This document shows positions 5,949-50,088 of a DNA stretch of 64,000 nt, piece after piece. The notes under the pieces are model-generated. The model was not told where the DNA came from. It worked only from the letters and a program-made list of their open reading frames with translations, and did no database searches. Each line of letters starts with the position of its first letter. Within the stretch, counting starts at the first letter, position 1. This stretch comes from Candidatus Uhrbacteria bacterium GW2011_GWE2_46_68 (lineage in GTDB: Bacteria; Patescibacteriota; Patescibacteriia; UBA9934; GWF2-40-263): NCBI GenBank assembly GCA_001002765.1, contig LCMS01000004.1:68775-132774 (forward strand). The letters run 5' to 3'. The position numbers and the translations under genes were made by a program.

Positions 5949-7290
5949 TATGTCTCTTTTTCGATCAAGTTTAGAATCTTCTCCGTCTGCTATCCCTGCG
6001 GAGGTAGGGGGCCAACGTACTTCAGCAAACCTAAGCGAGGCCATCATGGATTCGGTTTCAAGTGTCCGTGATTCTTTGCCAAAAGAACACCGCACACACT
6101 TTGAAACTCTGCGACAAGAGATCATTGATTTTACAAAAGCTCATGGGATTCCAAAAGAATCTCTTGGCAGTCCCGACCTCCTGCGCGAGGCTACAAAAAA
6201 ACTTTCTACCCAAGACCTTGAGCGACTTGCTCTCCTTCTTGAACGCTTTGAGCATCTACTTACTCACAAAGAGCCTCGTCGGGAAAAATCGGAAGCGCTT
6301 GAGTATGCCGATGAGTGGTATAACCTTTCCGAACGATACGCGTTTCAAATGAATTTTTTAAAAACACTAGGCATATACTTCCTGCATGAGAGAAACAAGA
6401 CATTCAATGAACGCATAGCAAATTTAAAGAACTTGCTTGGATCCTTATTGCCTTTTGGAAAGAAAAAACGCGAGGTGCCTTCGGCGTCTGAATCCATGGA
6501 AGATTTTTTCCTTTTGGATGTATTGGGAAGAAAGTATTCTGTTCCCACCTTGGAACAAATCGCCGCGCGTCTTTTTGAACGTCGCGAGGAACTTGAAACC
6601 AAACACGATCAAGGTTTTACTCATCTTCTTTTTGTTCCTTTTGCCGTTGAGACTGATCTTTTCATGCTTGCTTTTGGAAAATTTCTTCAAGATCGCGATA
6701 TGGAGAAAACGTTAGTGTCCCCGGTAGCTTATGCAAGTACCACTCGTTCGGTGATGTCACGCTTACGATATTTTCCGCAATCTTTTGACGCGAAAGGAGG
6801 TGATAGAGGTAAAGACAAGATGGACATTTTGAAGGAATTATCTGAACAGGCAAGCTCTTTTCTCGGGTGGAGGATCCTTCTTCTTCAAACTCCTCATGGT
6901 CAAAAAAGAGGATTCCGCGGTATCTCAAAGGATGGAGACCAAAAGAAATCATTCACCCGTCCGGAATTGGAAGTGGGGAAGACGCCTTCGGAATACCTTT
7001 CTCTCCAGAGAGACGAAACATCGCCTTATGATGGAGAATCGAGTATGGTTCTTGAAGATTGGATTTGTGCTTTTATGATTCATTATATGGAAACACGATC
7101 TTGTCTTGACGATATGGAATCCGGGGGAAATGCAGCTTCTTATTTGACAGGAGTATCACTTCCTGGGGATTTTACCGGATCTCAAATGGTGATAGCTGTA
7201 AAGTATGCACACCAAGATATCTTTTTTTATTGCCATTCTCCTCATCACAAAGATGAACAGATTGGTGCGCGTTTTGTCGTAGAGGTTTGA
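5949..7290 (+). CDS. paralog family protein of unknown function (copy 1 of 3 in window)
   Basis: Starts MSLFRSSLESS at ATG 5949, right after the upstream TAA and a GGAGG RBS. Homologous over its full length to 62365..63663 and 63675..>64000 (shared LPKEH..F..LRQEIIDF..HGIP..L..PDLLREA..L...DLERLA.LLE, LLPFGKKKR, DQGFT.LL.VPF, SPY.GE...EDWI.AFM.H, IGARF.V). Confidence 0.6.
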
Positions 7291-21328: not shown

Positions 21329-21610
21329 AACAGAAACGATATCCTCGGTGAGATCCGGGGATTTTTTTGTTGAAAAAGAAAAAGCCTTCTCAAAGGAGAA
21401 GGCCGCGTGGCTCGAGACGAGCGAAGGGGCGATGGGAAAAAGGACAAAAAAGCTCAGTGGCAGGAAGGCTCATGGCAGGAAGGGAAGGAACAGGGGCACA
21501 AGGACCAAAATGGTCCGTAGAGGAACGAGAGGATGGGAAGAGATCCTCTCACCGCAGTTGAGCTTGGGGGAAGAGGGTGTGAAACCCAGCGTGCGGTGAG
21601 GGGATGGGGG

Positions 21611-21687
21611 TGGCGGGCGTGACAGGAATCGAACCCGCAGCCTTCGGATTTGGAATCCGCTGCTCCACCTAATTGAGCTACACGCCC
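21611..21687 (-). tRNA. tRNA-Trp (CCA)
   Basis: Reverse complement folds as GGGCGTG-TA-GCTC-aattaggtg-GAGC-a-GCGGA-TTCCAAA-TCCGA-aggct-GCGGG-TTCGATT-CCTGT-CACGCCC-G-CCA. Anticodon CCA, discriminator G, encoded CCA end. Confidence 0.9.
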
Positions 21688-21808
21688 ACCAAAACGGAAA
21701 ACAAGGAAATGAACGTGCCAAAACAGTAGTCTTCCAGGTTTTTTTTGTCAACAGCTTTTGATCGTTTTTATTGCTTTTTCGCATAAAAAAAGGCATACTT
21801 TTTGGCAT

Positions 21809-25134: not shown

Positions 25135-25488
25135 TTGTACCGACTTTTGTCAATTTTTCATCTTCGTATGCTCAAAACACATTCTTCCACAGTTTATCAT
25201 GTTGTGTTTGTTCTTGTGTGCGGTTTTTTGTTCACTCTTTTTGCCTCGTTCGTTCCTGTTGGAACAGAATGGGCACTGACAGGATTTTGTGACGATGGAT
25301 GTTTTGAAAAGATGACAAAGCTGGGATTTCCTTTTGTTGTTTTTCACCCCGACGGTCTTAATTCGGTTTCATGGTTTTTTTCCGAATGGGCATTTGTTGC
25401 AAATTTTATCCTTTTTGTTTGCGTTGTCCACACGGTTATCTCTCTTATTGCCTACGGAATCAAACAAATAAGTCAGAAGAAAATATGA
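25135..25488 (+). CDS. small membrane protein (3 TM), hypothetical
   Basis: Hydrophobic 117-aa ORF; ATGA overlap with the next ORF. Confidence 0.3.
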   Translation: MYRLLSIFHLRMLKTHSSTVYHVVFVLVCGFLFTLFASFVPVGTEWALTGFCDDGCFEKMTKLGFPFVVFHPDGLNSVSWFFSEWAFVANFILFVCVVHTVISLIAYGIKQISQKKI

Positions 25489-25958
25489 GAAAAATATTAT
25501 CACGGTGTTTATTTATTTTTTTAGCAGCACTCATTCTTGTTGTACTGGCCGCATTTTTTCCATGGCCGGGCACATATTCTTTTGAAGGAGCTTGGCGCTA
25601 CGATGCAAGTGAGAATCGTTATTGTTCGGGAGATCGCATCTATCTTTCTTTTAGAGATGAAACATTTTTTTATCGTGTGTCAGATGGCGGAACAAGCCCT
25701 TGCAGTTTTTTGTCAACAAATCCATTAGCCATTCCTTATGTCCTCAATTCTCAATCAGAAGAGAAGGAAGGACCTTCCACCTATGTCCTTACTTTGGATG
25801 CAATGGATGTACCTTCGCCGCTGGAATTAACTTTTTGGCCTGGTAGCGATTCACTTAATGTTTTCGGTTGCTCTTTTAAAAGGCTTACTCTTTTGGAAGA
25901 AATTTTGATAAAAATTTTGCCCACGACCCTTGGAGGGGCCATGATTTTTACGCCGTAA
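25485..25958 (+). CDS. secreted hypothetical protein
   Basis: Start at MRKILSRCLFIFLAALILVVLAAF (signal peptide/TM), internal ATG of ORF 25371. Confidence 0.35.
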   Translation: MRKILSRCLFIFLAALILVVLAAFFPWPGTYSFEGAWRYDASENRYCSGDRIYLSFRDETFFYRVSDGGTSPCSFLSTNPLAIPYVLNSQSEEKEGPSTYVLTLDAMDVPSPLELTFWPGSDSLNVFGCSFKRLTLLEEILIKILPTTLGGAMIFTP

Positions 25959-25988
25959 TTTTTATAGAAAGAAAATGGAAAATGATCT

Positions 25989-26354
25989 ATGGAAGAATCC
26001 GCATCGTTTCAATTAGCTAAACAATTTTTGGGAAAAGAGGTAGAGGTTTTGATGGATAGGCCTTTGGGCAGTCTTCACCCAAAATACGGTTTTGTGTATG
26101 AGGCGAACTATGGATATCTTCAGGGGGTAAAGGCTCCGGATGGTGAAGATTTGGATGCGTATTATTTGGGAGTGGACCAACCGATAGAAAAAGGGAAAGG
26201 GATTGTCAGAGCGATCATTCATCGTTTGGAAGATGATGACGATAAACTGGTTGTTTTTCCCGAAGGGGTTACCATGACGGACGAAGAAATAGAAAAAGCG
26301 GTCGCGTTTCAAGAACAATATTTTATACACGAGATTTTAAGAGATCATTCATAA
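25989..26354 (+). CDS. short inorganic pyrophosphatase-like protein
   Basis: YEANYGYLQGVKAPDGEDLDAYYLG resembles the family I PPase core (Y.NYGFIP.T...DGDPLD), but 121 aa is shorter than canonical Ppa. Confidence 0.4.
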   Translation: MEESASFQLAKQFLGKEVEVLMDRPLGSLHPKYGFVYEANYGYLQGVKAPDGEDLDAYYLGVDQPIEKGKGIVRAIIHRLEDDDDKLVVFPEGVTMTDEEIEKAVAFQEQYFIHEILRDHS

Positions 26355-26355
26355 T

Positions 26356-26682
26356 ATGTCCCTTACTCCAGATCAAGAATGCGCGTTGATCGCCGCAGCA
26401 GAGGAAGGCGTGCGACATGCGTATACCGAGCATCAAAGCCCGGATGATTTTCGTATTGGCGCTGCTGTTCTTGCAGAGAAAGGTCATATTTTTTCCTCGG
26501 GTCAATATCGATCGGATAGCGGATCACTCACCCTTCATGCCGAGCAATGTGCGCTTGCCTATGCCTCTGCACATGGAGAATATGGTATCGTTGCGCTTGC
26601 AGTGACGTGGAACGAAAAGGCCGCTTCAAAAAGCGAAGGGGAGTCCATATATCCTTGTCACATGTGTAAGCAACTTTTATGA
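26356..26682 (+). CDS. cytidine/deoxycytidylate deaminase family protein, C-terminally truncated duplicate
   Basis: HAEQCAL...PCHMCKQLL zinc-binding motifs. About 95% nt identity to 27703-28030, but the stop falls right after CKQLL, where the inserted gene begins. Confidence 0.6.
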   Translation: MSLTPDQECALIAAAEEGVRHAYTEHQSPDDFRIGAAVLAEKGHIFSSGQYRSDSGSLTLHAEQCALAYASAHGEYGIVALAVTWNEKAASKSEGESIYPCHMCKQLL

Positions 26683-27659
26683 AAAATTCTTATAATAAAA
26701 TTTTGATTATTTTTAGCGGTTTAGTGGTTTTAGGTTGTTTGTTTTTTGTCGGTTCGGCTTATTTTTTACCGTCCGCTTCTCAGGCCGACATCCAGACAGT
26801 TCCGGCCATTCTTTATTTAACCACTATGACCCATTTAGAAGACGCTTGGGGAGAGGCGGCCACGCAAGAAATGTATTTTAAGAGGGTGGCCGAGGAAGTG
26901 CGTTATGGAATGGATTTGGCCGAAGACTATGACGCTATTTTGACTATTGAAACCGGTCTGCCGTTTGCCGAAGGGTGTGTTAATTTTAATGATAATGTTA
27001 TGGCCGAAGTTTTAGAACGAGGTCATGGAGTTGGTGTTCATCCTGATTTGCCGGCTAAAAAAGTTTTACCAATCGAATTAGCGACCGATTTTATTAAAAA
27101 ACGGATCGACGCCTTAAAAAATCTGGTTGACACTGATATTATCGGTTGTTCTGGGGTTAGTGCAAAATCCGATTGGTATACCGCCAGTCTTCAAGCCGGT
27201 TGTAGTTTTGTTGATGGGACGGTGGCTTTCGCTTATCTTTCCATGCCCATGGCCCCGCTTGGTGACGAACGCTTTTATCCTTTTTGGATAAATTCATGCG
27301 AAGATTTTGTTCCAGACGAAGACGGTGATTTACTTTTGGGTTCCGGAGAAACTTTTAGTCTTGCCATGTATGCCGAGATCGGTGATCGTAACGGTGTCCA
27401 CCCGGAGTGTGGCAACGAATGCCCTCTAACGACGGACGACGTCGAAATTTTTGTCAGAGAAATTACCGATTTTGCCAACGGTCGTGATACGGCGAGAATC
27501 GCAAAATTTAATGTGTACTTTCCGGCGAATCTTTTTGTCCCGGAAAATAAAAAAGTTTTAGAGCTTTTTTTCAAAGAAGCTCAAAAATTACAAAACAGCG
27601 GAGTTCTTCAATGGGCCAGTCAGGCCAAAATTTATGAAGTCATGGTAGCTGACAGATAG
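26679..27659 (+). CDS. exported hypothetical protein (compositionally atypical; possible NodB/deacetylase-like)
   Basis: N-terminal TM/signal. Codon usage (CCG, GCC, TTA, GGT rich) differs from neighbours. HGVGVHP and KSDWY weakly recall polysaccharide deacetylase motifs. Confidence 0.45.
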   Translation: MKNSYNKILIIFSGLVVLGCLFFVGSAYFLPSASQADIQTVPAILYLTTMTHLEDAWGEAATQEMYFKRVAEEVRYGMDLAEDYDAILTIETGLPFAEGCVNFNDNVMAEVLERGHGVGVHPDLPAKKVLPIELATDFIKKRIDALKNLVDTDIIGCSGVSAKSDWYTASLQAGCSFVDGTVAFAYLSMPMAPLGDERFYPFWINSCEDFVPDEDGDLLLGSGETFSLAMYAEIGDRNGVHPECGNECPLTTDDVEIFVREITDFANGRDTARIAKFNVYFPANLFVPENKKVLELFFKEAQKLQNSGVLQWASQAKIYEVMVADR

Positions 27660-27702
27660 AAAATTTTAAGATGCAGATAAAAATCATAGAGGAATTCATG
27701 AT

Positions 27703-28143
27703 ATGTCTCTTACTTCAGATCAAAAACTCGCACTGATTGCTGCGGCAGAGGAAGGCGTGCGACATGCGTATACCGAGCATCAAAGCCCGGATGATTTTCG
27801 TATTGGCGCTGCTGTTCTTACAGAGAAAGGTCATATTTTTTCCTCGGGTCAATATCGATCGGATAGCGGATCACTCACCCTTCATGCTGAGCAATGTGCG
27901 CTTGCCCATGCCTCTGCACATGGAGAATATGGCATTGTTGCGCTTGCGGTGACGTGGAACGAAAAGGCCGCTTCAAAAAGCGAAGGGGAGTCCATATATC
28001 CCTGTCACATGTGCAAGCAACTTTTGTGGGAAAGTCATTTGCATTCAGGATTGGATATGGAAATTTTGATTGTGGAGAAGGGGGAAGTTCTGGAACAGAT
28101 CCATTTACAAAAACTTGTCGGCGACTACACCTGGCCGAAATAA
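27703..28143 (+). CDS. cdd: cytidine deaminase (full length)
   Basis: 146 aa; H-A-E and PCxxC zinc ligands; full-length copy of the duplicated gene. Confidence 0.7.
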   Translation: MSLTSDQKLALIAAAEEGVRHAYTEHQSPDDFRIGAAVLTEKGHIFSSGQYRSDSGSLTLHAEQCALAHASAHGEYGIVALAVTWNEKAASKSEGESIYPCHMCKQLLWESHLHSGLDMEILIVEKGEVLEQIHLQKLVGDYTWPK

Positions 28144-28158
28144 CAACACCAATTTTTT

Positions 28159-28692
28159 ATGGATCCACTTTCATGGAAAGAATTGTCACGCGAGATTGCC
28201 TATAGTGGGCCTCGAGAAAAAATTATTGAGAAAGTGATGTACGAACTTCCCAACGGTAAGGTATCAGATTTTTATCTTCGTCGCGTAAAAAATACGGTCG
28301 TTGTCCTGGCGCTTACCACGGATCATCAGGTTGTTTTGGCCAAACAATTTCGTCCGGGGAAAAAGAGAGTTTTATTGGAGCTTCCCGGTGGTAGTATCGA
28401 GGAAGGACAAACACCGGAGCAAGCCATTCATCACGAGCTTTTGCAAGAGACGGGTTATGAGGGAAACCTTCACTTTGTGGCAGAATCTTTGCGCGACGGA
28501 TATTCAAACTGGATCTCCTATTGTTTTGTCGCTACAGATTGTAAAAAAGTTTCCGCACAACAACTTGATCCGCATGAATGTATTGACGTGACTCTTTTAT
28601 CTTTGGAGGATTTTAAAAAACTCGTCCGTTCTGGCCAAATGACAGACATTGATGCGGCGATGCTGGGTTTGGATTATCTGGAATTGCTGTAA
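28159..28692 (+). CDS. NUDIX hydrolase
   Basis: Nudix box PGGSIEEGQTPEQAIHHELLQETGYE. Confidence 0.75.
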   Translation: MDPLSWKELSREIAYSGPREKIIEKVMYELPNGKVSDFYLRRVKNTVVVLALTTDHQVVLAKQFRPGKKRVLLELPGGSIEEGQTPEQAIHHELLQETGYEGNLHFVAESLRDGYSNWISYCFVATDCKKVSAQQLDPHECIDVTLLSLEDFKKLVRSGQMTDIDAAMLGLDYLELL

Positions 28693-44108: not shown

Positions 44109-45014
44109 TTAGGTCGGAAGAAAGAGACGATGATGTTTTAGAGCGATCAATCCCTCCTTTTGCAGACGCACTATCATGGCTTTGATCCAAGCTTGATCCA
44201 GAGACAGATCAAAATGGGGATCAATCATGGGGCCGATTGTTTTGAGAAATGTCTCCGGATGTTCGCGAACAAATTTTAGAATTTTCCCGCGGTAGATACG
44301 ATCAGGATAAGGTTTATTTCTATGTCGAGATTCTTTTGCTTTTTTGATCATGATTTTTGGGATGCGGACGTGACCGGAGAGAAATCGAGGAGCCGATTTA
44401 CAGATGGCCTTCAGCGGGCAGGATGCACAGGCCGGAACTTTTGTGCAGGTGGATGTTGCCAGATCAAAGAGGGCTTGAGGTACATCATAAAATGCTCCGC
44501 GTTTTGGCAAGACAAAATCGGCAGATTGAACAATTTTTTTATCCATCTTTAAAGTTGGGTAGGGAATTCCAAATAAGACTCGTCCAAGAACGCGTCGAAT
44601 ATTGGTATCAATAGGGAGCGTTCGTTGATGTAGAGCAAAAGCACAGATGGCCGCGGCCGTGTAAGGACCAACCCCTTTGATTTTTTCCCAAGCTTCAGGA
44701 GTAGAAGGAACACCGTGCGCTATGATGTGTTTTGCAATATCTCGCAAGACTAAAGATCGACGATTATAGCCAAGTCCTGACCAGACCATGATCACCTGCC
44801 CATTGGTGGCTTCGGCGAGAGATTCCCAGGTTGGAAATTGTGTAAGCCAGCGTTTGTAAAAAATCATGACGCGCGAGACTTGGGTTTGTTGAAGCATGAT
44901 TTCGCTTACCAAAATTCGGTAAGGATCACGAGTTTGGCGCCAAGGCAAATCACGTCCGTGTTGACGGTACCATCGTAAAAGCGTGCTACTCAATCGTGGG
45001 GACATAAATGACAC
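44109..45014 (-). CDS. A/G-specific adenine glycosylase / endonuclease III family (HhH-GPD, 4Fe-4S)
   Basis: HhH-GPD region (IKGVGPYTAAAICAFA) and Cys cluster CTKVPACASCPLKAIC. Confidence 0.7.
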   Translation of the reverse strand: MSFMSPRLSSTLLRWYRQHGRDLPWRQTRDPYRILVSEIMLQQTQVSRVMIFYKRWLTQFPTWESLAEATNGQVIMVWSGLGYNRRSLVLRDIAKHIIAHGVPSTPEAWEKIKGVGPYTAAAICAFALHQRTLPIDTNIRRVLGRVLFGIPYPTLKMDKKIVQSADFVLPKRGAFYDVPQALFDLATSTCTKVPACASCPLKAICKSAPRFLSGHVRIPKIMIKKAKESRHRNKPYPDRIYRGKILKFVREHPETFLKTIGPMIDPHFDLSLDQAWIKAMIVRLQKEGLIALKHHRLFLPT

Positions 45015-45597
45015 CAGCGTCTACGAGTGCTTTATAGTGCTCTGGCGAATGGCGATACAGATACTCCAAAAGTTTTCCGCGAATATAATCAATCGAAAAT
45101 CCTTTACCTACGGCGTAGTCCACGAGTTTTTTTGCGGCTTCTTCTTTTTGATTTTCTTCGGTCATAATCTCTATTTCCGCCACTAAATAAGGATGACCAT
45201 CTCCAAGGTCACAGGAATCAAGATCAATGGAATAAGGTTCATCCTGATAGCGTTTTCGTGTGGTCGTGATGGTGCTAAAGGGGGCGTATCCGGCTTGCGC
45301 GAGAATCTCGTTTGTGAGCGTGCAGGGAGGAAGGTGAAGAACCTCACAAGTCTCTTCGTCCGTCTCGATTTCACGATATTGGGTGAGAGCCATTTTGTTT
45401 CCCAGAACATGGAGAGGAGTTTTGATTTCAAATCGACCGTTACGATTGCGCAGCCATATGTCTTTGCAAGTGAGAACAAAATCCAAAGTGTCGTAGTAGG
45501 TATCGGTTTGAATTTTTTCCCCAAGAAACGTGGCGCTTGCGATGATTTTTGCTTCTTGCTCTGGAGTAAAGTGAAACTTTTTCTCGATCTCGATCAT
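44986..45597 (-). CDS. CYTH domain protein (triphosphate tunnel metalloenzyme)
   Basis: MIEIEKKF start carries the CYTH ExExK motif. The longer track ORF up to 45783 would run through the tRNA exon and is rejected. Confidence 0.6.
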   Translation of the reverse strand: MIEIEKKFHFTPEQEAKIIASATFLGEKIQTDTYYDTLDFVLTCKDIWLRNRNGRFEIKTPLHVLGNKMALTQYREIETDEETCEVLHLPPCTLTNEILAQAGYAPFSTITTTRKRYQDEPYSIDLDSCDLGDGHPYLVAEIEIMTEENQKEEAAKKLVDYAVGKGFSIDYIRGKLLEYLYRHSPEHYKALVDAGVIYVPTIE

Positions 45598-45739
45598 AGG
45601 GGATATTGTTAAGGACGGGTTGATTGTAACATGACCATTGGTGCCTTGCACGGCATAGATTTCTTTGTTATGCTTTTGCCACGTTCTTTGGAAAAAAGAA
45701 TTATTCCGGGGTAGCTCAGTGGTTAGAGCGGCTGGCTGT

Positions 45740-46318
45740 GGCACACGCTTATAGGTATTATAGAATTCTATGGAATCCAACAAGCGATCCTATGCCCGAC
45801 GCGCGGAATATCTCAAAAAAGCAGTTGTACGCAGAAGGCGTGAAGTTCGAGAGAAGGCGATTGCTCACTTAGGTGGTCAATGTCAGATATGTGGTTATAA
45901 ACGTTGTGAGCAGGCTCTCGATTTTCATCACCGCAACCATAAGGAAAAAACATTCGGCATTTCCCAAAAAGGATATACAAGATCTTGGGAAAGAGTAAAA
46001 GAAGAACTAAAAGGTTGTGTCTTTCTTTGTGCAAATTGTCATCGAGAAATTCACGCAGGGTATACGCAGCTTCTGACAGAGATGTCAGAATGATCATAGG
46101 GTGAACTTCTGGAAGCCTACATCCGAAAGGATATGGTAATCAGAAGCCAAGCCCCACGAAGTTTAAGACAAGTGGGGAAGGTTCAGAGACTATCCGTTAT
46201 GACCCTCAAAAGAGAGGGGAGGAGTACCTCGCCAAAAGGCGGGGGAAGCGCCCTACATCCTCGCAATATGCAGGATGATGATATAGTCCACCCCTTTGGG
46301 AAACCAAAGGATGATGTG
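45740..46318 (+). ncRNA. group I self-splicing intron in tRNA-Asn anticodon loop (between nt 36 and 37)
   Basis: Catalytic-core element R (GTTCAGAGACTATCC, 46181-46195) and element S (GATATAGTCC, 46280-46289) form P7. 5' splice after U, terminal omega-G at 46318. Contains an HNH ORF. Confidence 0.7.
45770..46093 (+). CDS. HNH homing endonuclease (intron-encoded)
   Basis: CQICGYKRCEQALDFHHRNHKEK...CVFLCANCHREIHAG carries the HNH/zinc-finger motif. Located inside the intron 5' region. Confidence 0.75.
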   Translation: MESNKRSYARRAEYLKKAVVRRRREVREKAIAHLGGQCQICGYKRCEQALDFHHRNHKEKTFGISQKGYTRSWERVKEELKGCVFLCANCHREIHAGYTQLLTEMSE

Positions 46319-46382
46319 TAACCAGTAGGTCGTGGGTTCAAGTCCCACCCCCGGAGCCACAAAGATCCCTAGCAATTTGCTA

Positions 46383-46465
46383 GGGATTTTTGTTATCCGT
46401 GATAGAATGATCGTGAAGTTTCCGTGTGTACAAACAGAAAAGTCCGATGTCCGGACTTGACCCTG
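46383..46465 (+). repeat. 83-bp direct repeat copy A (T-tract + extended -10 promoter TGATAGAAT + 5'UTR with REP-like core)
   Basis: Identical over ~74 nt to 47925-48008. Preceded by hairpin CCCTAGCAA-tt-TGCTAGGG at 46367-46385. Contains GTCCGGACTTGACCC, related to REP rc CGACCTGACCC. Confidence 0.8.
46400..46408 (+). promoter_or_regulatory. extended -10 promoter box TGATAGAAT (within repeat A)
   Basis: TGnTAnAAT extended -10. The same 21-nt box T(T/G)TCCGTGATAGAATGA(T/C)CGT also occurs at 47942 and 49483. Confidence 0.5.
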
Positions 46466-46504
46466 TTTTCCATTGCCTCAAACGAGAACCATAACAATTC
46501 CACT

Positions 46505-47200
46505 ATGCAAAATCGTCCACATACAACACTTTTCATGCTCATGTCGATAGATGGCAAAATTACAAGCGGAGATTCGGACAGTCTTGACTCAGATCGTGAT
46601 TGGAAGCGTATTTGTGGCGTGAAGGAAGGGCTTTATCAATATTATGATCTAGAGAAACAAACCGATTTTTGTTTTCTACAAAGCGGTCGCGTTTTCGAAA
46701 AAATTGGCATGAATAATCGAGGACCATCAGTTGAAAAGATCCCTGTGACCGGGGTAGTCATAGACAACAAGCCGCATCTCAATGCAAAAGGCCTGCGCCA
46801 TCTTTCAACCTGGTTAGACCGAGTGATTATCGCCACAACAAATCCAAACCATTCCGCACATACTTTTGGAGGAAACGTACAGGTCATTCAATACAACAAC
46901 ACGATTGATTTCTCCGCTTTACTGACAGAGTTAAAAGAGAATTTTGACGTTGACCGAGTCACCATCCAAACCGGCGGTACATTGAATGGTCTTTTATTGC
47001 GTCAGGGACTCATTGACGAATTATCAATCATCGTAGCCCCACTTGCTGTTGGAGGAAAGGGAGTATCAACACTTATCGACGGTGAGGCAATCCATTCCGT
47101 TAATGATTTGAACAAGTTAAAGGCACTCGAACTTACATCCTGTGACGTATTGAAACATTCATTCCTTCATCTTCGTTATACAGTTTTAAACTATTCGTGA
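46505..47200 (+). CDS. dihydrofolate reductase-like / RibD C-terminal domain family protein
   Basis: MQNRPHTTLFMLMSIDGKITSG... with C-terminal GGTLNGLLLRQGLIDELSIIVAPLAVGG, typical of the RibD_C/DHFR-like fold. Start at internal ATG 46505, downstream of the repeat. Confidence 0.55.
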   Translation: MQNRPHTTLFMLMSIDGKITSGDSDSLDSDRDWKRICGVKEGLYQYYDLEKQTDFCFLQSGRVFEKIGMNNRGPSVEKIPVTGVVIDNKPHLNAKGLRHLSTWLDRVIIATTNPNHSAHTFGGNVQVIQYNNTIDFSALLTELKENFDVDRVTIQTGGTLNGLLLRQGLIDELSIIVAPLAVGGKGVSTLIDGEAIHSVNDLNKLKALELTSCDVLKHSFLHLRYTVLNYS

Positions 47201-47838
47201 TGAGGGTTGAAACTGTATACTGTTCAGGTATGAAGAAAGAAATAAAATTTCCGACAAAACAAGAAGTTGATGTCCACATAAATCAGAACAGGACGGAACT
47301 TTTTTCTGACCCAGACTTTCGGGAATATGAGGAAGTGGATATTATTTTTCTCGAACCAACACAACTTATTGCTTTGAGAGATTACCCTCCTCTGCACAGT
47401 CCCGAAGCTTTTACGGTGTATCGCAAGAAATTTGTAGCAGGTGAGAGAGTTGAACCCATTGTTGTTATTCCATCTCGAATTGTTATTGAATATTTAAAGA
47501 AGAATGAAGTTCGTGCTCATACGTACAGACAAGAACTTGAGCTGTTTCTTAATACACACCCACGAGCCACATACTTTATGCTCGGTGGCAAACATCGTTC
47601 GGCTGCAGCAACGATATTAGGTGTAAGAATTCCTTGCCTTGTGATCAGCAACGATGCTGATGTCGCTAAAATTAACGCTCTTATGGCGGAAGGTAAACTG
47701 ACAGGCATGCCGAGTGTTGGAGAAAATTTTAAAAGGACACTTTCCGAATTAGATGATCATTATTTTGAACACAAAGTTTTTTGGACCATGGATGAAAAAA
47801 CAAAAGCAATGATAGATCACGGGGACATTTCTCTTTAA
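47197..47838 (+). CDS. ParB/Srx-like nuclease domain protein
   Basis: LGGKHRSAAATILGVRIPCLVI resembles the ParB N-terminal domain core (GG.HR). ATGA overlap with the upstream gene. Confidence 0.45.
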   Translation: MMRVETVYCSGMKKEIKFPTKQEVDVHINQNRTELFSDPDFREYEEVDIIFLEPTQLIALRDYPPLHSPEAFTVYRKKFVAGERVEPIVVIPSRIVIEYLKKNEVRAHTYRQELELFLNTHPRATYFMLGGKHRSAAATILGVRIPCLVISNDADVAKINALMAEGKLTGMPSVGENFKRTLSELDDHYFEHKVFWTMDEKTKAMIDHGDISL

Positions 47839-47924
47839 AGTCAAATGAAAAAAATTTAGCGCTCGAATGGCTGTTTTTGAATGACTCATAACAGGGAATC
47901 GGCAAAATTCTTCAGCGAAGGCTG

Positions 47925-48008
47925 GGGATTTTTGTTATCCGTGATAGAATGATCGTGAAGTTTCCGTGTGTACAAACAGAAAAGTCCGATGTCCGGACCT
48001 GACCCTGT
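47925..48008 (+). repeat. 83-bp direct repeat copy B (T-tract + extended -10 promoter + 5'UTR)
   Basis: Identical to 46383-46465 except 1-2 nt. Preceded by hairpin CAGC-gaag-GCTG. Promoter box TGATAGAAT at 47942-47950. Confidence 0.8.
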
Positions 48009-48035
48009 CCTCCACCGTTTTCCTTTGGTCTCATT

Positions 48036-48233
48036 ATGAAAAAATTTCATGGAAAAATATTTTATTTTGTCTTCACCATATTGTTTGGTGCATTCACGTT
48101 CCTCTATGGGGAATTTGATGATAGCCCCGGTGGCCAATTGATAGGATTGGCGGCGGTTATTATTGGCATCATAGGTTCGATGCGTTCATTGCGCGCGGCA
48201 AGCCGCATGGGACGAACGAACAAAAAGTCATAA
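48036..48233 (+). CDS. small membrane protein (2 TM)
   Basis: 65-aa hydrophobic ORF immediately downstream of repeat B. Confidence 0.3.
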   Translation: MKKFHGKIFYFVFTILFGAFTFLYGEFDDSPGGQLIGLAAVIIGIIGSMRSLRAASRMGRTNKKS

Positions 48234-48240
48234 TAGTTTT

Positions 48241-49371
48241 ATGAAAATTGCAACAAACATTGGACGTGATGCTTTTGGTGGAATCACTATTTCCAACCTT
48301 GCCCTTTTTGATTGGCTCGAAGACAAAGAGGATACTATTGTTGGTATTGAATACGTAACTTCAAGACATTTTTTAGGGGCGGTAATCTTTCGTCGTTACC
48401 TTCCCTCGTTTTTCAGTCATCACATTATTAACGGTATAGATATTATTCCCCGTTTTTCTTGGGAGAAAAGTGGCAATCTCAGAAAACGTTGGAATATCTT
48501 AGTCGAGACAACAAAAAATGTTTTACGACAAGAAGCACCAGATATCGTTTTGATTAATGGGACATATTTTGCCCCTTGGATACTCGCTATTGCAGCACAC
48601 GAGCTCGGTATTCCCATTGTTTTACGATATGCGGGTGTGTTACAAAGAGAAGTAGGTCATAGACCTTTTTTTATTAAAAGACGTCTTTTGTCTTATGAAA
48701 GATGGTTGGCATCAGCGGCCAACTCTATCATTTTTCCCTCAACTCTTTGTCAGATGGTCGTAGAAAAGGAAATAGTAGGACATGCTGTGAGACACAGTGT
48801 CGTAATACCAAATCCAGCCACATCAGGTTTATTGCGCCATCAAAAACCAAACAGTCGTTATGTTATAGCCGCAGTCGGTCGTTGGTCACGAATAAAAAAC
48901 TTTCAGGCTTTTATCACGCTTCATCAATCGTTGTTAGAAAAGAAGTTTCCACACCAAGCAATCATGGTTACTTCGTATTGGGACAAAAAGTTCGGTATTC
49001 CAGAAACCATTGAATGTAAAGATCCCATGAGTCAAGAAGATCTTCAAAAGTTTTATCGATCAGTTGATCTTCTGATTGTTCCTTCACTTTTTGAAACTTT
49101 TTGTAATGTTGCGGCCGAAGCATTGGTGAATGGAAGTTCCGTTCTGGTTTCTAAAAATGTGGGTTTTGCCGAAATACTCATCAAGGCTGGACTTAAACGT
49201 ATGGTGATTGATTCGTTTGATTGTCCTGAAAAAGTTGTATTAGCGATAAAACGATTGGCTAAAATAAAACTTTCAGAAAAAGAAAGAAAAAGGGTCGTCG
49301 CTTTGCTCAATCCGCAAGAAATACATCAAGACATTCTTAAGACGCTTGTCGGAGTTGTGAAAGGAAAATGA
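48241..49371 (+). CDS. glycosyltransferase family 4 (GT-B fold)
   Basis: C-terminal IVPSLFETFCNVAAEALVNGSSVLVS matches the GT4 E-x7-E region. Confidence 0.65.
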   Translation: MKIATNIGRDAFGGITISNLALFDWLEDKEDTIVGIEYVTSRHFLGAVIFRRYLPSFFSHHIINGIDIIPRFSWEKSGNLRKRWNILVETTKNVLRQEAPDIVLINGTYFAPWILAIAAHELGIPIVLRYAGVLQREVGHRPFFIKRRLLSYERWLASAANSIIFPSTLCQMVVEKEIVGHAVRHSVVIPNPATSGLLRHQKPNSRYVIAAVGRWSRIKNFQAFITLHQSLLEKKFPHQAIMVTSYWDKKFGIPETIECKDPMSQEDLQKFYRSVDLLIVPSLFETFCNVAAEALVNGSSVLVSKNVGFAEILIKAGLKRMVIDSFDCPEKVVLAIKRLAKIKLSEKERKRVVALLNPQEIHQDILKTLVGVVKGK

Positions 49372-49482
49372 TGAATTGTATGAAAAAATATTTTTTAGCA
49401 CTCCCGAGTCACTGTTTTCAAATCACTTGCGATGTGGGTCCAGGAAAATTTTTCAGATTCGTCTGGAGATTTTCATTGTCCG

Positions 49483-49491
49483 TGATAGAAT
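49483..49491 (+). promoter_or_regulatory. extended -10 promoter box TGATAGAAT (third copy of conserved 21-nt box)
   Basis: TTGTCCGTGATAGAATGACCGT, preceded by a small hairpin plus T-tract, 30 nt upstream of the 49522 start. Confidence 0.45.
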
Positions 49492-49521
49492 GACCGTAAG
49501 TATTTTTAACCCATTTTTCCT

Positions 49522-50088
49522 ATGTCTAAACGCATCTTCTTTATTCCGCTCCTGGTTTTAGTTTTGATCGGTGCCGGATGCCAGACAAACACCATTCAAG
49601 ATGATAGCGACACCGAAACAACTCTGGGAATCACATCAGAAACATTTGAAAGTGAACAGGGAGATTTTTCTTATACACTTACGTGGAACACAGGCCTTCT
49701 TTCTTTATCTGAAAAAGTCTCTACCGAAGCTTCAGAGCATGCCCCTTCTTTTGCCGTTGTCGGCGGCGGAAACATTACGGTGGTCACAGGCCTCATGGAT
49801 TCGCCCGAATATCAAATGTCCACCTTTATCAATGATATGTATTATGAGGGGGATCGAGAAAAAATTTGGTTATCTGAAGTCGTTCCCTCAGAAGCCGGTA
49901 TGAATAATCCCGTTTATTTTTTCTCCCAACCAGTTGATTGGAACCCTGCATGTATCGTTCAATACGGTGCTATCAAAGGGTTGAACGAAGCCTTATTAAT
50001 ACGTTTGGAAGATTGTGAGGGCAATGATATGAAATCAAGTGAAGCATTTCATGATCTCTTGAGCGATCTGATTATCACGAGAAAATAA
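49522..50088 (+). CDS. putative lipoprotein
   Basis: Signal peptide MSKRIFFIPLLVLVLIGAGCQ with lipobox-like GAGC. Confidence 0.4.
   Translation: MSKRIFFIPLLVLVLIGAGCQTNTIQDDSDTETTLGITSETFESEQGDFSYTLTWNTGLLSLSEKVSTEASEHAPSFAVVGGGNITVVTGLMDSPEYQMSTFINDMYYEGDREKIWLSEVVPSEAGMNNPVYFFSQPVDWNPACIVQYGAIKGLNEALLIRLEDCEGNDMKSSEAFHDLLSDLIITRK

What the first reader, a model, noticed from the sequence alone, without database searches (positions are those of the whole stretch)
26356..28143. Cytidine deaminase duplicated around an inserted, compositionally foreign exported-protein gene
About 330 bp of cdd (26356-26682) is repeated at 27703-28030 at ~95% nt identity. The first copy is cut exactly at the ATG/TGA junction, where a 326-aa ORF with clearly different codon preferences (CCG/GCC/TTA-rich) begins. 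The second copy is full length. This looks like insertion of a foreign gene with partial duplication of the target gene, and there is no IS or TIR. The N-terminal ~40 nt of the two copies are more diverged than the rest.
Basis: seen in the sequence. Interest (0 to 1): 0.6.

Follow-up and report, generated by a model that had tools for sequence, protein, structure and literature searches.

The report
Borrowed gene splits duplicated deaminase gene
In one groundwater Uhrbacteria species, a gene for an exported deacetylase-like enzyme, taken from a neighbouring species, sits inside the cytidine-deaminase gene between two copies of that gene's first 343 bases; this is a clear but ordinary case of gene capture without any mobile element.

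Summary
Bases 26347-26689 repeat at 27694-28036 (343 nt, 93.3%). Copy 1 is a 108-codon cdd stump whose TGA overlaps the ATG of a 326-aa ORF (X). Copy 2 is an intact 146-aa cdd.

The arrangement appears in at least 4 independent assemblies of this species (Ca. Uhrbacteria GW2011_GWE2_46_68 type). All sampled related lineages carry one uninterrupted cdd and no X: L015, L016-L020, L088, L091 and 41 metagenome loci. The arrangement is therefore derived.

X matches another Uhrbacteria species (UBA12432/GWF2_44_350 type) from its ATG to 12 nt past its stop (about 7% nt divergence). There the gene sits by rsmB and glycosyltransferases. GC and GC3 of X are ordinary. Its synonymous codon choice (CCG, GCC, TTA) fits the donor-type genome and lies outside all 52 window genes.

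There is no transposase, TIR or short TSD. The junctions show microhomology.

Contig L091 carries a single cdd that equals the 5' end of copy 1 joined to the 3' part of copy 2.

The window's X lacks 20 residues, including invariant ones.

Verdict: horizontal gene capture with target duplication. It is well documented and modestly novel.

The parts
25989..26354 (+). Upstream gene p121 (weak pyrophosphatase-like). Its stop lies 1 nt before the cdd start. It marks the native upstream context of copy 1.
   Evidence: PF00719, E = 0.005, below the cut-off. It is 96% aa identical to the L015 gene in the same position.
26347..26689 (+). Direct repeat, copy 1 (343 nt).
26356..26682 (+). cdd' stump: 108 codons that keep the HAE and PCHMC zinc motifs and end 4 residues after PCHMC. 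It is probably not a deaminase by itself. I infer that it serves as a leader ORF that delivers ribosomes to X.
   Evidence: PF00383, 37.9 bits; residue 108 aligns to about residue 93 of the 136 residues of B. subtilis CDA. Codon dialect is native (LLR -0.081).
26398..26472 (+). 75-nt stretch identical in both copies (it equals 27745-27819). The switch from copy-1 to copy-2 sequence in the single-cdd contig L091 maps here.
26679..26682 (+). ATGA overlap: the start of X and the stop of cdd'. This is junction J1, which lies between 26678 and 26679.
   Evidence: Homology to the donor-type locus starts at 26678.
26678..27671 (+). Segment homologous to the X locus of the U-type Uhrbacteria (L008-L011, L021). 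It runs from the ATG to 12 nt past the stop, without the donor's upstream TATAAT or its downstream hairpin.
   Evidence: 86.7% with gaps, and 93.6%.. (7.3% mismatch over 1038 aligned nt).
26679..27659 (+). X: a 326-aa membrane-anchored, polysaccharide-deacetylase-fold protein. This is the allele with a 20-aa deletion.
27251..27252 (+). Site of a 60-nt in-frame deletion specific to this assembly. It removes SARPDGYTDEAILTDFYHRP, including the family-invariant R194, P195 and H209.
27663..27671 (+). ATTTTAAGA at the end of the X homology. It is identical to 26334-26342, just upstream of native cdd. The donor type reads ATCTTAAGA. Candidate microhomology for junction J2.
   Evidence: read from the sequence.
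27672..27693 (+). 22-nt filler of unknown origin. It contains AGAGGA (27688-27693), 9 nt before the ATG of copy 2, which is a likely new ribosome-binding site.
27694..28036 (+). Direct repeat, copy 2.
27703..28143 (+). Intact 146-aa cytidine-deaminase-family gene.
   Evidence: PF00383, 43 bits. (TIGR01354, 50.5 bits, below the cut-off). (280 homologues, about 140-150 aa)..
28159..28692 (+). Downstream NUDIX gene, the native downstream context.

Best explanation
An ancestor of this Uhrbacteria species (W; GW2011_GWE2_46_68 / GWF2_46_218 type) took up DNA from a co-resident Uhrbacteria lineage (U-like; UBA12432 / GWF2_44_350 type). That DNA carried a gene for an extracytoplasmic enzyme (X) with a polysaccharide-deacetylase fold.

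A promoterless piece, running from the ATG to 12 nt past the stop, was joined by illegitimate recombination into the nucleotide-salvage operon. It landed at the novel junction of a 343-bp tandem duplication of the 5' end of cdd. Junction J1 joins cdd nt 323 to the X start codon. Junction J2 joins the X 3' flank to the region just upstream of cdd, with the motif ATTTTAAGA present on both partners.

The result is p121 - cdd'(108 aa) - X - cdd(146 aa) - NUDIX. X has no Shine-Dalgarno sequence or promoter of its own. I infer that it is translated by termination-reinitiation at the ATGA overlap with the cdd' stump, which now acts as a leader ORF. The intact copy 2, behind a new AGAGGA site, keeps the deaminase function.

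Afterwards the repeats were partly homogenised by gene conversion (0-4% divergence in the body, 24% at the 5' edge). They can also recombine to delete X; contig L091 has exactly that structure. X stayed under purifying selection but with more amino-acid change than in the donor lineage. In some strains, including this window, it carries in-frame deletions of conserved residues.

Shown: the architecture, its derived state, the donor-type homology and codon dialect, and the fold. Inferred: the uptake route, the recombination mechanism, translational coupling and gene conversion.
For: Architecture.

Reproducibility: the arrangement recurs in independent assemblies. NCBI GCA_003506835.1, GCA_001002565.1, JGI 3300025152 and ENA ERZ27254852 hold the full arrangement. 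Three more contigs hold X plus copy 2.

Derived state: a single cdd is present in L015, L016-L020, L088, L091, L092 and the other metagenome loci.

Donor: homology runs from 26678 to 27671 only. X is 93-94% aa identical to the U-type protein, 77% to UBA12070 and 65-67% to L012. The native rsmB/GT context of X is shared by U and L012/L022. The window's GT4 orthologue (79% aa to the GT4 beside X in L012) has no X beside it.

Species distance: U's RsmB has no homologue above 75% outside its own cluster, and that cluster holds no W genome.

Codon dialect: LLR for X is +0.054. All 52 W genes are negative, all 10 U genes are positive, and the cdd copies score -0.081 and -0.057.

Clock: X has 19 (W branch) vs 21 (U branch) synonymous changes and 15 vs 6 non-synonymous changes, polarised by L063. 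Third-position divergence is 15% for X(W-U) and 12% for the cdd copies, which is compatible with one event.

No mobile machinery.

Operon: no convincing promoter or terminator lies between the genes.

Plausibility of uptake: natural competence has been shown in cultivated CPR Saccharibacteria (PMC10633639).
Against: J1 has only 1 nt of strict microhomology, and the 22-nt filler at J2 is unexplained.

The uneven divergence of the repeats (23.8% in nt 1-42, as large as the distance to the sister lineage; 0% in nt 43-117; 3.9% in nt 118-323) does not fit a simple single duplication. It needs an added assumption, either gene conversion or a mosaic origin.

The U codon background rests on 10 genes of one glycosyltransferase-rich contig and may not represent that genome.

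The distance between species W and U could not be measured on shared housekeeping genes. W's rsmB was not identified (one search found another genome).

No W genome was searched whole, so a second, native X copy in W is not excluded.

Translational coupling and the activity of either cdd product are untested.
Confidence: 0.6

Rival explanations
1. Campbell-type integration. A 1,347-bp circular DNA carrying a cdd 5' fragment (-9 to +323) from a related strain, plus X, integrated by one homologous crossover inside resident cdd. On this view L091 is the unoccupied resident allele, and the unit can excise again as a recombinase-free, homology-addressed cassette.
For: The product architecture is exactly what a single crossover with a 5'-inclusive gene fragment gives. 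L091's cdd equals copy 1 for nt 42 and below, and copy 2 for nt 118 and above, with no private change. This places a crossover in the 75-nt identical stretch. Most differences between the copies are synonymous (12 synonymous, 6 non-synonymous), as expected if two functional alleles diverged before they were joined.
Against: It needs a prior event that had already fused a cdd fragment to X, which moves the illegitimate junctions elsewhere rather than removing them. No such circle or donor arrangement turned up in 61 genome loci, 41 metagenome loci, viral contigs or plasmids. L091 is equally well explained as a pop-out deletion or an assembler path through the shared 75-mer. It also does not explain why nt 1-42 are 24% diverged while the rest is under 4%.
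Confidence: 0.2
2. No horizontal transfer. X is W's own gene, relocated or duplicated from its native rsmB/glycosyltransferase locus into cdd. The similarity to U then reflects a close species relationship.
For: The GT4 orthologue in the window (48241-49371) has no X next to it, unlike L012/L022. This fits a relocation. GC and GC3 of X are native-like.
Against: The codon dialect of X is outside the range of all 52 window genes and inside the range of U genes. No RsmB above 75% identity to U's, and no NCBI-sourced cdd above 65% identity to W's, exists in the database although several U and W assemblies are in it. This argues that the two species are not close.
Confidence: 0.1
3. Ancient paralogues. 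Two old cdd genes with a native gene between them, one copy decaying.
For: The first 42 nt of the copies are as diverged from each other as from the sister lineage.
Against: Every related lineage sampled has one cdd and no X at this locus, including L015 with identical synteny. The body of the repeat differs by only 2.8%, against 15-16% to L015. Homologues of X live elsewhere in the genome.
Confidence: 0.03
4. Assembly artefact. Strain variants of cdd were chained by the assembler around an unrelated contig.
For: Several short contigs end in or near the repeat or inside X (L002-L006). The source is a metagenome bin.
Against: The same cdd'-X-cdd junctions recur base for base in assemblies from different groups, samples and assemblers (NCBI, JGI, ENA). 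The cdd'-X junction forms a clean ATGA overlap, and all three ORFs are intact.
Confidence: 0.02

Closest known systems
Illegitimate integration of foreign DNA in naturally transformable bacteria: homology-facilitated or double illegitimate recombination (own knowledge, de Vries & Wackernagel-type events; HFIR is discussed in PMC6382021). Also tandem duplication with junction insertion by template switching (FoSTeS/MMBIR; own knowledge).
   Same: Foreign DNA is joined without a transposase, integrase or specific sites. Short sequence matches lie at the junctions. There is a small untemplated or unknown filler. The organism belongs to a group in which natural competence has been shown (PMC10633639).
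   Different: The target is duplicated by 343 bp rather than deleted. No homologous anchor was found in the donor. J1 has only 1 nt of strict microhomology. The mechanism is inferred from the scar only.
Campbell-type insertion-duplication (single-crossover integration of a circle carrying a gene fragment), as used in insertion-duplication mutagenesis (own knowledge).
   Same: The layout is identical: a 3'-truncated copy behind the native upstream region, then the insert, then a second copy. It can be reversed by recombination between the repeats, and L091 has the expected empty-site sequence.
   Different: No vector or circle is known. The duplicated fragment includes the gene's start, so the second copy is complete and the gene's function is preserved.
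Polysaccharide deacetylases of the CE4/NodB fold, closest to the HpPgdA / PuuE-like subgroup (PDB 3QBU, 3RXZ, 1Z7A); more distantly, GH57 enzymes.
   Different: Identity is 11-14%. There is no Pfam or NCBIfam hit. The conserved motifs are its own (TTMTHxE, RGHGVGxHxD, CSG, RP...H) and were not mapped onto the CE4 Asp-His-His triad. The substrate is unknown.
Homotetrameric cytidine deaminase (B. subtilis CDA 1UX1, human CDA 1MQ0).
   Same: Copy 2 is about 146 aa, has HAE and PCxxC motifs, and matches PF00383.
   Different: It scores far below the NCBIfam equivalog cut-offs, and it has His rather than Cys in the first zinc motif. Copy 1 lacks everything after the PCxxC helix.

Membership tests
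Cytidine/deoxycytidylate deaminase domain (PF00383) | Score above the Pfam gathering threshold (25 bits) | tested here: met
   Copy 1 scores 37.9 bits and copy 2 scores 43 bits.
Cytidine/deoxycytidylate deaminase domain (PF00383) | Zinc and catalytic motifs (H/C)AE and PCxxC | tested here: met
   HAEQ and PCHMC are present in both copies (translations; alignment to 1UX1).
Cytidine/deoxycytidylate deaminase domain (PF00383) | Complete fold, including the strands and helix that follow PCxxC | tested here: not met
   This row applies to copy 1 (26356-26682), which ends 4 residues after PCHMC, at about residue 93 of 136 in B. subtilis CDA. Copy 2 is full length, like its 280 homologues.
Cytidine deaminase proper (NCBIfam equivalogs TIGR01354, NF004064) | Score above the curated equivalog cut-off | tested here: not met
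   Copy 2 scores 50.5 bits against a cut-off of 113.65, and 43.4 against 74. The family assignment is sound but the substrate is unproven.
CE4 / NodB polysaccharide deacetylase | Match to a sequence model of the family | tested here: not met
   X has no Pfam or NCBIfam hit at E <= 0.01. No homologue carries a precomputed deacetylase domain.
CE4 / NodB polysaccharide deacetylase | Deformed (beta/alpha) barrel fold | tested here: met
CE4 / NodB polysaccharide deacetylase | Asp-His-His metal triad and catalytic Asp/His motifs | tested here: inconclusive
   Invariant H52, E54, E91, H121, D123, H209 and D233 exist. They were not superposed on the CE4 motifs.
Insertion sequence / transposon | Transposase or recombinase gene in or beside the insert | tested here: not met
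   The insert holds only X. Of the neighbouring ORFs scanned, most are NYN, NUDIX or DUF1653, p121 has only a sub-threshold pyrophosphatase match, and the 156-aa ORF at 25488-25958 has no match. None has a transposase or recombinase hit.
Insertion sequence / transposon | Terminal inverted repeats and a short target-site duplication | tested here: not met
   The only inverted pairs are chance-level, 14-16 nt, and not at the ends of the insert. The duplication is 343 bp.
Integron gene cassette | attC recombination site after the ORF and an integrase nearby | tested here: not met
   Only 43 nt separate the stop of X from the start of cdd, with no inverted repeat there. No integrase was found among the ORFs scanned. 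The whole window was not scanned for integrases.
Campbell-type insertion-duplication | Direct repeats of target sequence flanking the insert, and an empty-site allele equal to the 5' part of copy 1 plus the 3' part of copy 2 | tested here: met
   (L091).
Campbell-type insertion-duplication | Circular donor molecule carrying the target fragment | not testable with these tools
   This needs the raw reads. No such arrangement was seen in the loci fetched.
Microhomology-mediated illegitimate recombination | Short identical sequences shared by the partners at both junctions | tested here: inconclusive
   J2: the 9-nt ATTTTAAGA is present in the X flank (8 of 9 in the donor type) and upstream of native cdd, but it is separated from the repeat by a 22-nt filler. 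J1: 1 nt, plus patchy similarity.

The most novel reading that the evidence does not exclude
The 1,347-bp unit (cdd 5' fragment + X + filler) is a reversible, recombinase-free cassette. It inserts into and leaves the cdd gene by homologous recombination with the target fragment it carries, without ever inactivating the host gene. W strains with and without it (window vs L091) would then represent ongoing gain and loss of a cell-envelope enzyme in a CPR population.
Probability: 0.1. Interest if true: 0.6.

Novelty: new member of a known kind. Interest (0 to 1): 0.33.

Why it matters
It gives a base-resolved natural example of how an uncultivated CPR bacterium with a tiny genome acquires a gene from a neighbouring species without phage, plasmid or transposon. 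The ORF alone is grafted into an existing operon. The target gene is preserved by duplication of its 5' end, and the leftover stump probably supplies translation for the new gene.

The locus is also a candidate presence/absence polymorphism within one aquifer population. It could be followed in the public Rifle read sets to measure rates of gain, loss and gene conversion.

It also flags an unannotated family with a deacetylase fold that is linked to glycosyltransferases in Patescibacteria and Chloroflexota. This is a candidate cell-wall-modifying enzyme. None of this changes how such processes are understood.

Tried and rejected
(1) My first codon test (mean log relative codon frequency) gave z = +0.27 and suggested 'not foreign'. 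It is confounded by amino-acid composition. It was superseded by per-family fractions, a G-test and a two-genome likelihood ratio.

(2) I tried to calibrate the W-U species distance through RsmB. The 58% hit P0259 belongs to another Uhrbacteria assembly (GCA_000996715.1), not W. Only the indirect statement 'nothing above 75%' survives.

(3) P0059 (cdd, 64%) is not from a U genome.

(4) The afdb50 fold library was unavailable.

(5) Searches of viral contigs and plasmids found nothing.

(6) The promoter and terminator scan was at chance level (11 found vs 9.0 expected), with no site between X and copy 2.

(7) The inverted repeat I1 (27670-27685 / 28267-28282) was considered as a template for the filler. 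I estimated about 1.6 such matches by chance in 3.5 kb and dropped it.

(8) The 11-nt match AAATTTTGATT between X codons 7-10 and cdd codons 120-123, 16 nt out of register, was noted as a possible homeologous patch near J1. It is not relied on.

(9) An RNA-mediated (retro-copy) origin was considered because the copy starts at the ATG and the donor has TATAAT 8 nt upstream, which suggests a leaderless mRNA. I rejected it as unsupported. The copy stops 12 nt after the stop codon, before the donor's terminator hairpin, and no reverse transcriptase is known here.

(10) The metagenome scan did not return the W-type loci themselves, so it gave no population count of alleles with and without X.
Full report
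OBSERVATION. The repeat exists as described. The repeat finder reports a two-copy direct family at offset 1347. BLASTN extends it to 26347-26689 vs 27694-28036: 343 nt, 23 mismatches, no gaps, 93.3%. Over ORF 26356-26682, 307 of 327 bases are identical.
- Copy 1 is a 108-codon ORF that ends ...CTT TTA TGA.
- The ATG of a 326-codon ORF (26679-27659, here called X) overlaps that stop as ATGA.
- Copy 2 (27703-28143) reads TTG TGG at that point and continues to 146 codons.
- Both copies pass the Pfam threshold for the cytidine/dCMP deaminase domain and keep HAE and PCHMC.
- Both are far below the NCBIfam cytidine-deaminase equivalog cut-offs, so 'cdd' is a family-level label.
- Copy 1 stops 4 residues after PCHMC, which corresponds to about residue 93 of 136 in B. 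subtilis CDA. From the known CDA fold, it therefore lacks the last strands and the C-terminal helix.

SOURCE, AND WHETHER IT IS AN ARTEFACT. The window's X protein is identical to KKU41389.1 of Candidatus Uhrbacteria bacterium GW2011_GWE2_46_68. The same cdd'-X-cdd arrangement, base for base, occurs in GCA_003506835.1 (L001), GCA_001002565.1 = GW2011_GWF2_46_218 (L007), JGI 3300025152 (L003) and ENA ERZ27254852 (L004). Three further contigs hold X plus copy 2. An assembly artefact is therefore very unlikely. I call this species W.

ANCESTRAL STATE. The closest other lineage is L015 (cdd 87% aa; p157 and p121 95-96% aa). It has the same order p157 - p121 - cdd - NUDIX, with one intact 146-aa cdd starting 1 nt after p121. 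More distant lineages (L016-L019, L020, L088) also have a single cdd downstream of secA. All 41 loci from the metagenome scan have one cdd and no X. The split-and-duplicated state is derived and confined to W.

ORIGIN OF X.
- X has 50 database homologues, none with a Pfam domain of known function. Outside W, the nearest is P0003. It comes from UBA12432 (DOJV01) and the same aquifer, and occurs as fragments in GW2011_GWF2_44_350 and GWE2_45_35. I call this species U.
- Over aligned columns, X(W) and X(U) are 93-94% identical. Both are 77% identical to UBA12070 and 65-67% to L012/L022.
- In U, and in L012/L022, X lies beside rsmB and GT4/GT2 glycosyltransferases. That shared context marks the native home of the gene.
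- The window contains the orthologue of the GT4 gene that flanks X in L012 (48241-49371, 79% aa), but no X lies next to it.
- Nucleotide homology between the window and the U locus runs from 26678 to 27671 only. It begins at the ATG and ends 12 nt after the stop. U's upstream TATAAT and downstream hairpin are not included.

IS X COMPOSITIONALLY FOREIGN? GC (0.425) and GC3 (0.377) are ordinary. My first codon statistic was insensitive.
- CCG, GCC and TTA make up 0.57, 0.52 and 0.40 of Pro, Ala and Leu codons, against 0.23, 0.24 and 0.12 in 52 window genes. At most one gene is higher for any of the three.
- A G-test gives G/n = 0.367. Only 1 of 28 genes of similar length is as high.
- Ten genes of the U contig use CCG 0.40, GCC 0.47 and TTA 0.20.
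- In a likelihood ratio of U versus W codon models, all 52 window genes are negative (-0.088 +/- 0.044, maximum -0.013) and all 10 U genes are positive. X scores +0.054. The two cdd copies score -0.081 and -0.057.
- U's RsmB has no homologue above 75% outside its own cluster, which holds no W genome. No NCBI-sourced cdd is more than 65% identical to W's.
Together these favour horizontal transfer from a U-like lineage. Two caveats apply. The U background is one glycosyltransferase-rich contig, and the W-U distance was not measured directly.

AGE AND SELECTION.
- X(W) and X(U) differ at 7.3% of 1038 aligned nt and at 15% of third positions.
- Polarised with UBA12070 (L063), the W and U branches carry 19 and 21 synonymous changes but 15 and 6 non-synonymous ones. 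The rate looks clock-like, with purifying selection on both branches and looser constraint in W.
- The cdd copies differ at 12% of third positions. That is compatible with the duplication and the capture being one event.

THE REPEATS ARE A MOSAIC. With L015 as outgroup:
- nt 1-42 are star-like: 23.8% between the copies, and 21-24% from each copy to L015.
- nt 43-117 are identical.
- nt 118-323 differ by 3.9%, against 14-16% to L015. Five private changes lie on copy 1 (two of them non-synonymous, T40A and H69Y) and one on copy 2.
The clustering is significant (P = 2e-5; Fisher P = 0.006 against the copy 2-L015 pattern). Partial gene conversion of the interior, or a mosaic origin, is needed to explain it. 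Constraint on the protein alone cannot, because synonymous sites show the same contrast.

A SINGLE-cdd ALLELE IN THE SAME SPECIES. Contig L091 (ENA ERZ28564412) is close to identical to the window in the flanks. It reads p157 - p121 - cdd - NUDIX with no X. Its cdd is exactly copy 1 up to nt 42 and exactly copy 2 from nt 118 onward. It could be any of three things, which the available data cannot separate:
- the unoccupied allele;
- a deletion by recombination in the 75-nt identical stretch (26398-26472);
- an assembler path through that shared stretch.

JUNCTIONS.
- J1: cdd ...CAACTTTT | ATGAAAAATTC... X. The partners share one T, plus patchy similarity (cdd reads GTGGGAAAGTC).
- J2: the homology to X ends in ATTTTAAGA (27663-27671; U has ATCTTAAGA). 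The same 9-mer lies at 26334-26342, just upstream of native cdd.
- Between that motif and the start of repeat copy 2 lie 22 nt of unknown origin. They contain AGAGGA 9 nt before the ATG of copy 2.
- There is no transposase, no terminal inverted repeats, no attC-like structure, and no relative on viral contigs or plasmids.
The scar fits capture of a DNA fragment at the junction of a short tandem duplication by illegitimate recombination. A Campbell-type single crossover of a circle that already carried the cdd fragment gives the same product and is kept as the main rival.

WHAT X IS.
- The family alignment (48 sequences, Patescibacteria and Chloroflexota among others) has invariant H52, E54, E91, H121, D123, R194, P195, H209, D233 and others.
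- The N-terminus is a membrane anchor. In Chloroflexota homologues it is a lipoprotein-type LSAC signal.
- With glycosyltransferase neighbours at its native locus, a role in modifying envelope glycans is the best guess (inference).

STATE OF X IN THIS WINDOW. The window's allele lacks 60 nt at 27251|27252 that every other copy has, including distant homologues. The missing 20 residues include the invariant R194, P195 and H209. The GWF2_46_218 assembly has a different 24-nt in-frame deletion that removes the near-invariant CSG motif. The UBA, JGI and ENA assemblies carry the intact 346-aa form. The flanking sequence is otherwise identical. Either X is being lost in some strains or these two 2015 assemblies contain local errors.

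HOW IT PROBABLY WORKS (inferred). The genes from secA to beyond the NUDIX genes are tightly packed on one strand. No convincing internal promoter or terminator is present. X has no Shine-Dalgarno sequence, and its ATG overlaps the cdd' stop. Translation by termination-reinitiation from the cdd' stump is therefore the likely route. The stump is too short to be a deaminase. Copy 2, with a new AGAGGA site, supplies the enzyme.

VERDICT. The event is a well-resolved instance of a known kind of process: horizontal gene capture with target duplication and no mobile element. It occurred in a CPR bacterium and involves an unannotated family with a deacetylase fold. Interest is moderate to low. The most novel reading that remains open is a reversible cassette that carries its own target homology.

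Noticed in passing
window 27251-27252 (inside X): A 60-nt in-frame deletion relative to every other copy of the gene (L001, L003, L004, L007, L010, L012). It removes 20 residues, including the family-invariant R194, P195 and H209. The rest of the locus is 100% identical to L001.
   Followed up: yes
L007 6456 (= window 27134-27157): The GW2011_GWF2_46_218 assembly has a different 24-nt in-frame deletion in X that removes D-IIGCSGV, which contains the near-invariant CSG motif. There are thus two independent in-frame deletions in otherwise identical strains. Both come from the same 2015 study.
   Followed up: partly
L091 1630-2070 (ENA ERZ28564412 scaffold_83832): A W-type contig with a single cdd and no X. 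Its cdd is exactly the 5' part of copy 1 (nt 42 and below) joined to copy 2 (nt 118 and above).
   Followed up: yes
P0181 and P0180 (SRC, SRR3989339; partial proteins): Mosaic X alleles. P0181 has the U-type N-terminus and 16-aa linker, a W-type core, and a UBA12070-like C-terminal end. This suggests recombination among X alleles of different Uhrbacteria, or a donor closer to W than the sampled U.
   Followed up: no
L021 6363-6392 (U-type X locus; same in L010 about 5975-6003): TATAAT lies 8 nt upstream of the ATG of X and there is no Shine-Dalgarno sequence. The native mRNA may be leaderless. The copy in W begins exactly at this ATG.
   Followed up: partly
P0171-P0174 (GW2011_GWF2_44_350, GWE2_45_35): In two U-type assemblies X is annotated as two fragments (104+222 aa and 109+221 aa). 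This points to a frameshift or an assembly error in the native copy.
   Followed up: no
L088 6507-7178: In a lineage with a 64%-identical cdd, an IS200-type Y1 transposase gene sits directly downstream of cdd. In L092 (80% cdd), a NUDIX gene lies between p121 and cdd. Gene order around cdd is fluid among relatives.
   Followed up: partly
window 25164-28255 vs L015: Divergence from the sister lineage is uneven. The p157 and p121 genes are 95-96% nt identical, but the adjacent cdd is only about 84%, and secA about 90%. This suggests recombination mosaicism along the operon.
   Followed up: partly
window 45999-46310 (+), flanks about 45705-46359: Rfam finds a group I intron (87.6 bits). The sequence just after it (GGTCGTGGGTTCAAGTCCCACCCCCGGAGCCA) is a tRNA 3' half. 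ARAGORN in intron mode calls a tRNA-Thr(tgt) with a 579-nt intron. This is probably a group I intron in a tRNA anticodon loop.
   Followed up: partly
window 44986-50088: Genes in this glycosyltransferase region (44986, 46424, 47197, 49522) are among the least W-like in the U-versus-W codon likelihood ratio. ORF 46424-47200 has the highest codon-usage deviation of its size class (G/n 0.376). This may be another acquired segment, or an intron-associated ORF.
   Followed up: no
window 21470-21808 (-): The ORF listed here has aberrant codon statistics (z = -4.2) and overlaps tRNA-Trp (21611-21687, -). It is almost certainly not a gene.
   Followed up: yes
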